A DNA stretch of 4,809 bases from a virus (Duplodnaviria > Heunggongvirae > Uroviricota > Caudoviricetes): IMG/VR virus record IMGVR_UViG_2534682256_000019. One strand, given 5' to 3'. A program made the translations under genes and the position numbers. Every line of letters starts with the position of its first letter. The stretch's first letter is position 1. Under the pieces are notes generated by a model. That model had not been told where the DNA came from, ran no database searches, and was given only the letters and a program-made list of their open reading frames with translations. This document shows positions 3,189-4,809 of the stretch, in pieces.

Positions 3189-3321
3189 GGTGTTATTCCC
3201 GATGCTTTTTAAAGTTCGCAGAATCGTATGTGTAGAAAATTAAACAAACCCTAAACAATGAGTTGAAATCTCATATTGTTAATATTTATTAATGTATGTC
3301 AGATGCGAAGGATCGTCACTG

Positions 3322-3387
3322 TATTCCCGGATTAACTATGTCCGCAGCCCTGACAGGGAAACTCCTCTGCGGGAGTGTCCGGGAATA
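3322..3387. repeat. Nested inverted-repeat element in the bor to ybcV-like intergenic region
   Basis: Perfect 10-bp outer inverted repeat TATTCCCGGA (3322-3331) / TCCGGGAATA (3378-3387); inside it CCGCAG (3342-3347) / CTGCGG (3367-3372), and a central palindrome CCCTGACAGGG (3348-3358). Confidence 0.5.
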
Positions 3388-3479
3388 ATTAATAACGATG
3401 CACACAGGGTTTAGCGCGTACACGTATTGCATTATGCCAACGCCCCGGTGCTGACACGGAAGAAACCGGACGTGATGAT

Positions 3480-3890
3480 TTAGCGTGGAAAGATTTGTGT
3501 AGTGTTCTGAATGCTCTCAGTAAATAGTAATGAATTATCAAAGGCATAGTAATATCTTTTATGTTCGTGGATATTTGTAACCCATCGGAAAACTCCTGCT
3601 TTAGCAAGATTTTCCCTGTATTGCTGAAATGTGATTTCTCTTGATTTCAACCTATCATAGGACGTTTCTATAAGATGCGTATTTCTTGAGAATTTAACAT
3701 TCACAACCTTTTTAAGTCCTTTTATTAACACAGTGTTATCGTTTTCTAACACAATGTGAATATTATCTGTGGCTAGATAGTAAATATAATGTGAGACATT
3801 GTGACGTTTTAGTTCAGAATAAAACAATTCACAGTTTAAATCTTTTCGCACTTGATCGAATATTTCTTTAAAAATGGCAACCTGAGCCAT
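3480..3890 (-). CDS. ybcV: Hypothetical protein, YbcV-like (136 aa from the ATG; the ORF stays open to a TTG at 4013 giving 177 aa)
   Basis: Long minus-strand ORF in an AT-rich segment (hand counts give 18-19 G+C per 60 nt in rows 3661-3780, against 32 per 60 in the endolysin row 2041-2100). The ATG at 3888-3890 has an SD-like GGAAGG 8 nt upstream on the minus strand; the first in-frame ATG (3930-3932) and the TTG (4011-4013) have none. Position (next to bor) and the 136-aa size match my recollection of ybcV in DLP12 and the ORF beside bor in lambda. Function unknown. Confidence 0.7.
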
Positions 3891-4175
3891 TGGTAAAACC
3901 TTCCATGTGATACGAGGGCGCGTAGTTTGCATTATCGTTTTTATCGTTTCAATCTGGTCTGACCTCTTTGTGTTTTGTTGATGATTTATGTCAAATATTA
4001 GGAATGTTTTCAATTAATAGTATTGGTTGCGTAACAAAGTGCGGTCCTGCTGGCATTCTGGAGGGAAATACAACCGACAGATGTATGTAAGGCCAACGTG
4101 CTCAAATCTTCATACAGAAAGATTTGAAGTAATATTTTAACCGCTAGATGAAGAGCAAGCGCATGGAGCGACAAA

Positions 4176-4382
4176 ATGAATAAAGAACAATCTGCTGATG
4201 ATCCCTCCGTGGATCTGATTCGTGTAAAAAATATGCTTAATAGCACCATTTCTATGAGTTACCCTGATGTTGTAATTGCATGTATAGAACATAAGGTGTC
4301 TCTGGAAGCATTCAGGGCAATTGAGGCAGCGTTGGTGAAGCACGATAATAATATGAAGGATTATTCCCTGGTGGTTGACTGA
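4176..4382 (+). CDS. ybcW: Hypothetical small protein (68 aa), YbcW-like
   Basis: ATG at 4176 with a strong SD (GGAG 4165-4168, 7-nt spacing). Mildly acidic 68-aa product. Order and size match the small ORF after the bor-adjacent gene in lambda and DLP12 as I recall them. Confidence 0.65.
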
Positions 4383-4546
4383 TCACCATAACTGCTAATC
4401 ATTCAAACTACTTAACCTGTGACAGAGCCAACACGCAGTCTGTCACTGTCAGGAAAGTGGTAAAACTGCAACTCAATTACTGCAATGCCCTCGTAATTAA
4501 GTGAATTTACAATATCGTCCTGTTCGGAGGGAAGAACGCGGGATGT

Positions 4547-4741
4547 TCATTCTTCATCACTTTTAATTGATGTATATGCTCTCTTTTCTGACGTTAGCCT
4601 CCGACGGCAGGCTTCAATGACCCAGGCTGAGAAATTTCCGGACCCTTTTTGATCAAGAGCGATGTTAATTTGTTCAATCATTTGGTTAGGAAAGCGGATG
4701 TTGCGGGTTGTTGTTCTGCGGGTTCTGTTCTTCGTTGACAT
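4547..4741 (-). CDS. ylcI: Small putative DNA-binding protein with ribbon-helix-helix-like features (64 aa), YlcI-like
   Basis: 64-aa minus-strand ORF: basic N-terminus (MSTKNRTRRTTTR), then a candidate beta-strand NIRFP and two helix-like segments (NQMIEQINIALDQKG, NFSAWVIEACRRRL), the pattern of Arc/MetJ/CopG proteins. Size and position match my recollection of ylcI in DLP12. The SD is weak. Confidence 0.6.
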   Translation of the reverse strand: MSTKNRTRRTTTRNIRFPNQMIEQINIALDQKGSGNFSAWVIEACRRRLTSEKRAYTSIKSDEE

Positions 4742-4809
4742 GAGGTTGCCCCGTATTCAGTGTCGCTGATTTGTATTGTCTGAAGTTGTTTTTACGTTAA
4801 GTTGATGCG

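What the first reader, a model, noticed from the sequence alone, without database searches (positions are those of the whole stretch)
4547..4741. 64-aa YlcI-like protein predicted to be a ribbon-helix-helix DNA binder
The N-terminal basic tail, the short strand NIRFP and the two following helix-like segments fit the RHH pattern used by phage repressors (Arc, Mnt) and by many antitoxins. It is an orphan here: it is convergent with the YbcW-like ORF and has no adjacent co-directional partner in the window. It may regulate the neighbouring genes, or pair with a gene beyond the window end.
Basis: inference. Interest (0 to 1): 0.5.

Follow-up and report, generated by a model that had tools for sequence, protein, structure and literature searches.

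The report
Lambda's unannotated small DNA-binding repressor
The 64-codon reading frame is a real, strongly conserved gene (YlcI/YnfO family, also present but unannotated in phage lambda beside its DNA-packaging site) that most likely encodes a small ribbon-helix-helix DNA-binding regulator whose target in lambda-like phages remains unknown.

Summary
Window 4547-4741 (- strand) encodes a 64-aa protein of the DUF3950 / YlcI-YnfO family (Pfam E=5e-20). It is 98% identical to an ORF at lambda 48109-48303 (complement) that the lambda reference records leave unannotated. It is under strong purifying selection (dN/dS 0.04-0.21).

The ribbon-helix-helix (RHH) reading is supported by several independent lines, each moderate:
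- AlphaFold2 gives an extended N-terminus followed by two helices (19-32, 37-50+).
- Profile comparison with real Arc/Mnt sequences aligns NIRFP with Arc's NLRWP (P=4e-4).
- In homologues carried by P4-like/PICI satellites, residues 12 and 14 of the predicted strand co-vary with the centre of three palindromic boxes (GTG-N6-CAC) just upstream of the gene.

No dimer could be modelled. No operator was found for the window's own protein.

The idea of a partner gene beyond the window end is refuted. Past 4809 lie cos and the divergent terminase gene nohD/Nu1. The gene is always solitary and points against the surrounding lytic operon.

The best reading is a repressor made in the quiescent prophage, of a known kind. 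Interest is moderate.

The parts
4547..4741 (-). ylcI coding sequence, 64 aa plus stop. It corresponds to phage lambda 48109-48303 (complement).
   Evidence: ORF list. DUF3950 E=5e-20. 100% identical to ylcI in O157:H7 chromosomes. The DNA of 4380-4809 is 98.6% identical to lambda 47942-48370. dN/dS 0.04-0.21.
4691..4708 (-). Codons 12-17 (T-R-N-I-R-F): the predicted beta-strand of the ribbon. T12, N14 and R16 are inferred to face the DNA; I15 and F17 face the core.
   Evidence: I15, R16 and F17 are invariant. hhalign register with Arc's NLRW. Residues 12 and 14 co-vary with operator cores in satellite homologues. The segment is extended, not helical, in the AF2 monomer.
4709..4741 (-). Codons 1-11: basic N-terminal arm (MSTKNRTRRTT).
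   Evidence: Read from the sequence. Low pLDDT and no secondary structure. Arm positions 4-6 co-vary with the operator core in homologues, r 0.34-0.41.
4646..4687 (-). Codons 19-32: helix A.
   Evidence: AF2, pLDDT about 82-87. I25 invariant.
4592..4633 (-). Codons 37-50: helix B, opening with the invariant F37-S38 and containing W40, V41, A44 and C45.
   Evidence: AF2. Invariant columns. Pfam DUF3950 covers residues 21-49.
4547..4591 (-). Codons 51-64 plus stop: a variable C-terminal tail, not part of the conserved core.
   Evidence: At least four unrelated tails occur in otherwise near-identical lambdoid copies. pLDDT 54-58.
4742..4809 (-). 5' leader and start of the presumed promoter region. 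It holds a GGGG Shine-Dalgarno-like run at 4749-4752, the palindrome TCAG-N5-CTGA at 4757-4769, and the first half of TTGAT-N4-ATCAA at 4802-4809. The region continues beyond the window into cos.
   Evidence: Sequence. Palindrome list. No consensus sigma-70 site was found on this strand.
4383..4546 (.). Spacer between the convergent ybcW and ylcI genes, with an 8-bp inverted repeat (4419-4426 and 4439-4446). No T-run terminator is present.
   Evidence: the repeat finder I10 in L001, converted to window coordinates. Terminator scan negative. The ybcW-ylcI pair is listed as a convergent overlapping-transcript pair in K-12 (PMC12288877).
3480..3890 (-). ybcV (DUF1398): the next gene on the same strand as ylcI. 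Its homologue ydfO lies directly downstream of ynfO in Qin-type prophages.
   Evidence: Pfam DUF1398 E=3e-46. RefSeq annotation. PDB 2HH8 YdfO, E=2e-70.

Best explanation
**What it is.** YlcI is a small, solitary DNA-binding transcription regulator of the ribbon-helix-helix type.

**How it is proposed to bind (inferred).** Two copies pair their N-terminal strands (residues 12-17) into a two-stranded ribbon that lies in the DNA major groove.
- T12, N14 and the invariant R16 read the bases, helped by the basic arm (residues 4-9).
- Helices 19-32 and 37-50 form the dimer core.

**What the sequence shows directly.** In every kind of element examined, the gene points against the flow of the surrounding lytic operon. 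It is divergent from the first gene of a lytic module:
- the terminase gene nohD/Nu1, across cos, in lambda-type phages;
- HNH-TerS-TerL in Stx-type phages;
- the icd-like to primase operon in P4-like/PICI satellites.

**Inferred for the satellites.** The protein binds three palindromic GTG-N6-CAC boxes placed between its own gene and the divergent operon. There it would act as a repressor of the quiescent state and as an autoregulator.

**Inferred for this window, by homology only.** The lambdoid protein does the same kind of job. It is made from the prophage. It is silenced when Q-dependent late transcription runs through it in antisense. It represses a target that is not yet identified.
For: **Real, constrained gene**
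-.

**RHH fold**
- AF2 topology and element lengths.
- hhalign against genuine Arc/Mnt sequences: P=4e-4, in the expected register.
- Weak hits point the same way: a HicB-like PHROG at E=0.016 and a CopG-family PDB chain at E=1.4.

**DNA binding through the strand (in homologues)**
- In 26 satellite loci, three GTG-N6-CAC boxes sit at about -99, -76 and -30 from the ATG.
- The upstream regions hold 54 strict boxes in 3.4 kb. The remaining roughly 300 kb of the same loci hold 70 (totals).
- Box cores correlate with residues 12 and 14 (r=0.72) but not with the rest of the protein (r=-0.01). In the partial Mantel test, 0 of 5000 permutations reached the observed value.
- Column by column, the signal is confined to the arm and the strand.

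**Conserved placement and orientation**
-.

**Transcribed in an uninduced cryptic prophage**
- ybcW-ylcI is listed among convergent overlapping transcripts in K-12.
Against: - No dimer model could be made, so the ribbon itself is unseen.
- The window and its prophage contain no GTG-N6-CAC boxes near the gene.
- The three palindromes upstream of the lambda-type gene are unlike one another.
- Nu1-type and HNH-type phages carry almost the same N-terminal 50 residues but share no flanking motif above chance. An operator for this protein is therefore not identified, and autoregulation is unproven.
- No consensus promoter was found upstream.
- No experimental paper on YlcI/YnfO function was found.
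Confidence: 0.6

Rival explanations
1. YlcI is the antitoxin, or dedicated regulator, of a two-gene module whose partner is the DUF1398 protein (YbcV/YdfO). In this window the module has been split by insertion of ybcW.
For: - RHH proteins are common antitoxins.
- In Qin, ynfO is followed 57 bp later, on the same strand, by ydfO (DUF1398). The same layout occurs in loci L034, L038 and L041.
- In the window and in DLP12, ylcI and ybcV are on the same strand.
- ylcI transcripts reportedly overlap ybcW, so read-through toward ybcV is conceivable.
Against: - DUF1398 is not a known toxin; its structure 2HH8 carries no functional name.
- Stx-type phages and all satellites carry ylcI without any DUF1398 gene.
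- The C-terminal tail, which binds the toxin in RHH antitoxins, is not conserved.
- ybcV has its own PdhR-dependent expression.
- No neighbour cluster is conserved next to ylcI on the same strand across the family.
Confidence: 0.1
2. YlcI is an accessory factor of DNA packaging. It binds at or near cos, or the terminase genes, and modulates terminase action rather than transcription.
For: - The gene is always the divergent neighbour of the first packaging gene, in two unrelated packaging modules: Nu1 with cos in between, and HNH-TerS-TerL at 41 bp.
- E. coli satellites encode fusions of the YlcI domain to the N-terminal DNA-binding part of a Terminase_2 small subunit. P0256 scores 45.4 bits against a cut-off of 26.1 and occurs on 39 contigs.
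Against: - The gene is antisense to the late transcript that makes terminase, so it should be least expressed when packaging occurs.
- Most family members sit in satellites or chromosomal islets far from any packaging gene.
- The slot between the lysis and packaging modules also holds other genes oriented against the late operon, such as bor and ybcV, so position alone is weak evidence.
Confidence: 0.1
3. The phage copy is a borrowed satellite repressor used for cross-talk. The prophage makes it to hold resident P4-like/PICI satellites silent, or to be sensed by them.
For: - The family's clearest role is as the divergent regulator of satellites.
- Satellite box cores and ribbon residues are highly diversified, as expected for immunity-type specificities.
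- A satellite and a YlcI-bearing prophage lie side by side in L084.
Against: - No satellite with the lambda-type ribbon (T-R-N-I-R-F) was seen among the representatives.
- No matching box is known.
- The idea rests on inference alone.
Confidence: 0.12
4. The ORF is a decaying or non-functional remnant, and the family signal only reflects recent shared ancestry.
For: - It is unannotated in the lambda reference records J02459 and NC_001416.
- No consensus promoter was found.
- No phenotype has been reported.
Against: - dN/dS is 0.04-0.11 at saturated dS.
- Ten residues are invariant across three bacterial orders.
- The start codon and length are conserved.
Confidence: 0.03

Closest known systems
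Arc and Mnt repressors of Salmonella phage P22 (ribbon-helix-helix)
   Same: - Similar small size and a phage origin.
- A basic N-terminal arm, followed by a strand with the same N-x-R-aromatic-P pattern: YlcI N14-I-R-F-P18 against Arc N11-L-R-W-P15.
- A 14-residue helix A, a short loop, and a helix B that begins with Ser.
- The profile alignment falls in that register.
- The gene sits at a divergent promoter region in the satellite homologues, as mnt and arc do in immI.
   Different: - No significant sequence match: BLASTP found nothing and the Pfam Arc model is not hit.
- The inter-helix loop is longer.
- The conserved W40/C45 helix-B signature is specific to this family.
- The operators of the homologues are 12-bp GTG-N6-CAC boxes in three copies, not the 21-bp Arc operator (the latter from established knowledge).
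- The target of the lambda-type protein is unknown.
RHH antitoxins such as M. tuberculosis VapB12 (PDB 7E4J), in the CopG/MetJ superfamily
   Different: - There is no adjacent toxin gene in the window or in most contexts.
- The C-terminal tail is variable rather than a conserved toxin-binding segment.
- Sequence identity is 5%.
YlcI (DLP12) and YnfO (Qin) of E. coli K-12; Pfam DUF3950; NCBIfam NF041551
   Same: They belong to the same family and occupy the same position next to nohD/nohA. The window protein is essentially YlcI itself.
   Different: Nothing differs in kind. The databases and the papers searched record no fold or function for the family. The RHH assignment and the satellite operator arrays are additions made here.
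Master repressors of mobile elements at divergent promoters (lambda CI; Stl of staphylococcal pathogenicity islands)
   Same: In the satellite homologues, the gene is the only one pointing against the lytic genes. Three operators lie between it and a divergent early operon.
   Different: - The fold is unrelated: CI and Stl are helix-turn-helix proteins (established knowledge).
- No derepression mechanism is known.
- Published models of enterobacterial satellites list AlpA, MerR or Stl homologues as the regulators and do not mention DUF3950 (PMC10085698).
- In lambda itself CI holds that role, so YlcI can only be an accessory regulator.

Membership tests
DUF3950 / YlcI-YnfO family (Pfam PF13132, NCBIfam NF041551) | Scores above the curated cut-offs of the family models | tested here: met
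   Pfam 71.4 bits against 25. NCBIfam 36.6 bits against 30.
DUF3950 / YlcI-YnfO family (Pfam PF13132, NCBIfam NF041551) | Conserved N-F-S motif and the I-R-F / W-V-x-x-A-C signature in a protein of about 55-80 aa | tested here: met
   N36-F37-S38, I15-R16-F17, W40, V41, A44 and C45 are present. These columns are invariant or nearly so in 58 members.
Ribbon-helix-helix (Arc/MetJ/CopG) superfamily | Beta-alpha-alpha order with a short N-terminal strand and two helices joined by a tight turn | tested here: inconclusive
   The AF2 monomer shows an extended 1-18 segment, then helices 19-32 and 37-51/63. pLDDT is 72-76 overall and 82-87 in the core. DSSP calls no strand, as expected for a monomer.
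Ribbon-helix-helix (Arc/MetJ/CopG) superfamily | Obligate dimer in which the two strands form an antiparallel ribbon | not testable with these tools
No multimer prediction is available.
Ribbon-helix-helix (Arc/MetJ/CopG) superfamily | Detectable structural similarity to a solved RHH domain | tested here: inconclusive
Ribbon-helix-helix (Arc/MetJ/CopG) superfamily | Sequence or profile similarity to an established RHH family | tested here: inconclusive
   hhalign against Arc/Mnt: P=4e-4 to 6e-4, probability 28-35%, 19-22 columns. No RHH Pfam model is hit by any of the 58 members apart from HicB_lk_antitox in 3 of them, best E=0.022. PDB profile search: a CopG-family chain at E=1.4.
Ribbon-helix-helix (Arc/MetJ/CopG) superfamily | DNA specificity carried by alternate residues of the strand, binding to repeated or palindromic sites | tested here: inconclusive
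   Met for the satellite homologues by covariation: residues 12 and 14 against box cores, r=0.72, 0 of 5000 permutations. Not shown for the window protein, for which no operator was found.
Arc family proper (P22 Arc/Mnt) | Significant match to Arc/Mnt sequences or to the Arc family model | tested here: not met
   BLASTP found no alignment. Pfam scans list no Arc model. The protein works like Arc but is not filed as a member.
Type II antitoxin | Co-transcribed toxin gene immediately adjacent on the same strand | tested here: not met
   The window has none. Upstream lie cos and the divergent nohD. No same-strand neighbour is conserved across 43 loci. Only Qin-type prophages have DUF1398 downstream, and it is not a known toxin.
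Type II antitoxin | Conserved C-terminal toxin-neutralising segment | tested here: not met
   At least four unrelated C-terminal tails follow a near-identical 50-residue core.
Known anti-phage defence systems (PADLOC) | Match to a defence-system protein model | tested here: not met
   No family matched at E of 0.1 or better.

The most novel reading that the evidence does not exclude
YlcI-family proteins are an undescribed class of quiescent-state repressors shared between lambdoid phages and their P4-like/PICI satellites.
- In satellites, they would hold the icd-primase operon off through three GTG-N6-CAC operators, with a simple two-residue recognition code (positions 12 and 14).
- The phage copies, placed against the packaging nuclease genes and next to cos, would either keep terminase/HNH expression silent in the lysogen or interfere with satellite derepression.
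- The fusions of YlcI to the terminase small-subunit N-terminal domain would be satellite tools that bind helper packaging sites.
Probability: 0.2. Interest if true: 0.7.

Novelty: new member of a known kind. Interest (0 to 1): 0.45.

Why it matters
Lambda is among the best-studied viruses. Even so, this conserved gene, about 200 bp from its cohesive end, is absent from the reference annotation and has no assigned function.

Placing DUF3950 in the ribbon-helix-helix class turns a 'domain of unknown function' into a testable DNA-binding regulator. That domain is present in about three quarters of complete E. coli genomes (the ybcV-ylcI query matched 4095 of 5426).

The homologues also suggest something not in current satellite models: a repressor with three operators, and a readable link between two residues and operator sequence. 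That link could be used to predict immunity groups of enterobacterial satellites, or to design orthogonal small repressors.

For the window itself the result is modest. It is a plausible fold and role, with no identified target.

Tried and rejected
**Searches for a fold or family match that found nothing**
- BLASTP against Arc: no alignment.
- phmmer and a profile search of PDB sequences: nothing significant.
- Foldseek against the PDB: nothing.
- Lenient Pfam scans of all 58 family members showed no recurrent RHH model.
- PADLOC: nothing.
- Rfam on the window: nothing.

**Searches for an operator of the window's own protein**
- No GTG-N6-CAC boxes in the window, and none near ylcI in the 17.6-kb prophage locus.
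- K-mers shared between Nu1-type and HNH-type flanks are at chance level. An 11-mer and two AT-rich 9-mers were examined and dismissed.
- The palindromes at -105, -74 and -28 are unlike one another and lie in a region that is 98% identical in all lambda-type copies, so no footprint can be read.

**Promoters**
- Consensus promoter scans found no leftward promoter upstream of ylcI.
- They found none in a satellite spacer either. My promoter assignments there (TTGACG and TATAGT) rest on inspection only.

**Other checks**
- Long antisense ORFs that cover ylcI in satellites are annotated as 'transcriptional repressor' in Pmp7 and as 'hypothetical protein' in vB_KppS-Ant. I considered them as the real genes and rejected that: they vary from 50 to 700 aa, look like low-complexity read-through, and share only the C-terminal icd-like part.
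- Literature searches for YlcI, YnfO and DUF3950 found no functional study. Searches on lambda expression and on satellites found none either.

Full report
**1. What is in the window**

The window is the late-gene end of a lambdoid prophage. In order it holds:
- rusA, ylcG and the Q antiterminator (PF06323);
- a holin, a lysozyme and Rz/Rz1;
- then, on the opposite strand, bor and ybcV (DUF1398);
- ybcW on the + strand;
- and finally the ORF in question, 4547-4741 on the - strand.

Bases 3200-4809 are 100% identical to many E. coli O157:H7 chromosomes, where RefSeq names the genes ybcV, ybcW and ylcI. In strain PV15-279 the prophage sits next to icd.

Bases 4380-4809 are 98.6% identical to phage lambda 47942-48370. 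The ORF therefore corresponds to lambda 48109-48303 (complement) and differs by one residue, D30E. The lambda reference records J02459 and NC_001416 annotate nothing there. Some newer lambda records call it a hypothetical protein.

**2. Is it a gene?**

Yes, on four grounds.
- It matches Pfam DUF3950 (71.4 bits), NCBIfam YlcI_YnfO_N and PHROG 949.
- Between the window copy and the copies in Stx-type phages, synonymous sites are saturated (dS 0.8-1.6), yet the first 50 codons differ at only 7 non-synonymous positions. dN/dS is 0.04-0.11.
- Across 58 members from Enterobacterales, Pasteurellales and Orbales that share only 33-45% identity with it, I15, R16, F17, I25, F37, S38, W40, V41, A44 and C45 are invariant.
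- After residue 50 the sequence is free to vary. At least four unrelated tails occur in lambdoid copies.

The family is narrow, with 141 clusters at 50% identity among 1.84 billion proteins.

A caution for anyone repeating this. Most top 'homologues' are error-laden copies of lambda control DNA on contigs of about 3.5 kb, filed under unrelated organisms.

**3. Fold**

AlphaFold2 was run with a 58-sequence alignment.
- It gives an unstructured basic arm and an extended segment up to residue 18, helix A (19-32), a four-residue loop, and helix B from residue 37.
- Mean pLDDT is 72, and 82-87 in the core. A model of residues 10-52 gives the same elements.

Fold and profile comparisons gave the following.
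- I rebuilt genuine Arc and Mnt sequences from phage records.
- Profile-profile comparison then gave P=4e-4 to 6e-4 and probability 28-35%.
- It aligns YlcI T12-G33 with Arc Q9-G30, so that N14-I-R-F-P18 lies on Arc N11-L-R-W-P15.

Each line is modest. All of them point the same way, and none points to another fold.

**4. Evidence from relatives that the strand reads DNA**

I fetched 39 diverse genomic loci.
- About 30 are P4-like/PICI-type satellites. Their gene order is integrase, AlpA, often an AntA/Bro-type gene, then ylcI, then an icd-like gene, DUF4222 and a primase. Some also carry capsid genes.
- In these loci ylcI is the only gene on its strand, and it is divergent from the icd-like to primase operon.
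- In 26 such loci the spacer carries three 12-bp boxes, GTG-N6-CAC, at nearly fixed positions: about -99, -76 and -30 from the ATG, or -108, -85 and -38.
- Strict boxes number 54 in 3.4 kb of upstream DNA, against 70 in the remaining roughly 300 kb of the same loci (totals).
- By inspection, the middle box abuts a conserved GTCAA, which reads TTGACG on the other strand, like a -35 element. The box nearest the gene follows a TATAGT-like hexamer. The consensus scanner did not call either promoter, so that part is inference.

The six central bases differ between elements and track the protein.
- Y/F12 with G14 goes with TTTAAA.
- T12 with G14 goes with [CT]A[CT]A[AT]A.
- K12 with N14, H14 or A14 goes with G/C-rich cores.
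- Identity at residues 12 and 14 correlates with box-core identity (r=0.72).
- Identity of the rest of the protein does not (r=-0.01).
- In the partial Mantel test, 0 of 5000 permutations reached the observed value.
- Column by column, the signal sits at positions 12 (0.55) and 14 (0.53), at position 11 (0.35) and at arm positions 4-6 (0.34-0.41). It is absent from both helices.

This is the pattern expected for a ribbon inserted in the major groove with N-terminal arms, as in Arc. The loci are related to one another, so the statistics are indicative only. The lack of any correlation with the remainder of the protein argues against simple shared descent.

**5. Context of the window's own subfamily**

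In lambda-type phages the gene lies between the lysis genes and the packaging genes, antisense to the Q-dependent late transcript. It is divergent from the first packaging gene.
- Beyond window position 4809 come about 130 bp, then the cohesive-end site, then nohD/Nu1 about 390 bp from the ylcI start, on the other strand.
- DLP12 and Qin of K-12 have the same layout.
- In Stx-type phages the neighbour is instead an HNH endonuclease gene 41 bp away, followed by TerS and TerL.

Downstream on the same strand the next gene is ybcV (DUF1398). In Qin-type prophages its homologue ydfO follows ynfO after 57 bp. That keeps a two-gene-module idea alive. However, Stx-type phages and the satellites lack DUF1398.

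Other family members are solo genes in chromosomal islets:
- in four Tatumella species, between housekeeping genes;
- in Citrobacter, after a TonB-dependent receptor gene;
- in Salmonella, after cdtABC.

**6. What I could not find: the operator of this protein**

- The window and the 17.6-kb prophage locus have no cluster of GTG-N6-CAC boxes.
- Upstream of the lambda-type gene there are palindromes at -105 (ATAATCAATTAT), -74 (TTGATC-N2-ATCAA, half inside the window) and -28 (TCAG-N5-CTGA, window 4757-4769). Their spacing recalls that of the satellite boxes.
- These three palindromes are unlike one another, and the whole region is 98% conserved, so it carries no footprint.
- Nu1-type and HNH-type phages share the N-terminal 50 residues but no flanking motif above chance.
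- No consensus sigma-70 promoter precedes the gene.
- The only expression evidence is that ybcW-ylcI appears among convergent overlapping transcript pairs in K-12 RNA-seq (PMC12288877).

**7. Mechanism proposed, and its standing**

| Standing | Statement |
|---|---|
| Shown | A constrained 50-residue core with a variable tail. |
| Shown | Solitary placement against the surrounding lytic operon, in three kinds of element. |
| Shown | Operator-like triple boxes in the satellites, whose cores co-vary with residues 12 and 14. |
| Inferred | A dimeric RHH fold. |
| Inferred | Repression of the divergent operon and of its own promoter in the satellites. |
| Inferred | The same type of activity for the lambdoid protein, made in the quiescent prophage and shut off by antisense late transcription. 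|
| Unknown | The lambdoid target. |

Candidates for that target are leaky transcription into the terminase or HNH genes, satellite operators in trans, and ybcV.

Rivals are scored in the report sections:
- antitoxin or regulator of DUF1398 (0.10);
- packaging accessory factor (0.10);
- phage-satellite cross-talk (0.12);
- dead remnant (0.03).

**8. Comparison with what is known, and novelty**

- The protein is a member of DUF3950/YlcI-YnfO (membership met).
- It works like Arc/Mnt but fails a membership test for that family.
- It resembles RHH antitoxins in fold only. The defining adjacent toxin and the conserved tail are both absent.
- The databases and the papers searched give no fold or function for this family.
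- A survey of satellites lists AlpA, MerR or Stl homologues as the regulators and does not mention DUF3950 (PMC10085698).

For the window, this is a new member of a known kind of regulator. The satellite operator arrays and the recognition pattern at residues 12 and 14 are the more original by-product.

**9. Verdict**

Interest is 0.45.

Noticed in passing
Loci L045-L083 and L091: the 130 bp upstream of each ylcI homologue (for example L067 5900-6000): P4-like/PICI satellites carry three GTG-N6-CAC boxes at fixed positions between ylcI and a divergent icd-like to primase operon. The 6-bp cores co-vary with residues 12 and 14 of the protein (r=0.72). This looks like an undescribed repressor-operator module of enterobacterial satellites.
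   Followed up: yes
L084 7001-7363 (P0256); also P0196, P0374-P0376 and L088 4714-5103: Satellites encode 120-129-aa proteins that fuse a YlcI domain to the N-terminal DNA-binding part of a Terminase_2 small subunit. In the local alignment this part is 29 of 53 residues identical to a neighbouring prophage terS fragment. Repeated GTTTAACAC-like boxes lie upstream. In L084 a second, plain DUF3950 gene lies just before it.
   Followed up: partly
L084 2176-2664 and 9696-9881: The satellite in E. coli CP027459 appears to sit inside a prophage terS gene. A 61-aa Terminase_2 N-terminal fragment lies on the integrase side, and a full 162-aa terS with a different N-terminus lies on the far side. This suggests that integration swaps the 5' end of terS. 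No direct repeat of 14 bp or more was found.
   Followed up: partly
window 3952-3968: ATCTGGTCTGACCTCTT in the ybcV-ybcW spacer is identical to the DLP12 site reported to bind host PdhR. The same study found ybcV and ybcW mRNA about 10-fold lower in a pdhR mutant (PMC7660256).
   Followed up: partly
L004-L044 (genome-contig hits) and P0001-P0120: Dozens of contigs filed under Streptomyces, Cohnella, Staphylococcus aureus, Flavobacterium and others are copies of the right end of lambda. Many are about 3.5 kb with sequencing errors, which looks like sequencing-control DNA contaminating assemblies. They inflate the apparent host range of this family.
   Followed up: partly
L091 4435-5109 (Pmp7_0008) and L092 5634-6608: Deposited annotations call long ORFs antisense to ylcI: a 'transcriptional repressor' of 224 aa and a hypothetical protein of 324 aa. 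These look like over-extended icd-like genes that run through ylcI, so the real small gene is missed in those records.
   Followed up: yes
L052, L065, L066 and L070 (Tatumella); L099-L101 (Citrobacter); L102-L103 (Salmonella): Solo YlcI-family genes sit outside mobile elements. One lies at a conserved spot between a malic-enzyme-like gene and a transporter-like gene in four Tatumella species (gene identities judged from the sequences, not tested). One follows a TonB-dependent receptor gene in Citrobacter koseri. One lies just downstream of cdtABC in Salmonella.
   Followed up: partly
window 3480-4013: The ybcV reading frame is open for 177 aa from a TTG at 4013. RefSeq and the Pfam match (residues 49-167) favour the 136-aa form starting at 3890, while lambda's lambdap78 is annotated with the long form.
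   Followed up: no
L001 9690-9706 (about lambda 48451-48467), beyond the window end: A perfect 8+1+8 palindrome, ATGATAAT-T-ATTATCAT, lies about 30 bp before the cohesive-end cut site and overlaps a promoter-like site (GTGACA-16-TATCAT) that points toward nohD. Lambda itself has one mismatch in it. Its relation to cos elements or to YlcI is unknown.
   Followed up: no
L001 9664-9672 compared with the Qin-type locus L038 (same position): Within an otherwise roughly 98% identical cos-proximal region, a 9-bp patch differs at most positions between the O157 prophage (GCATCTACG on the ylcI strand) and L038 (GCGTGGAGG). The cause is unexplained.
   Followed up: no
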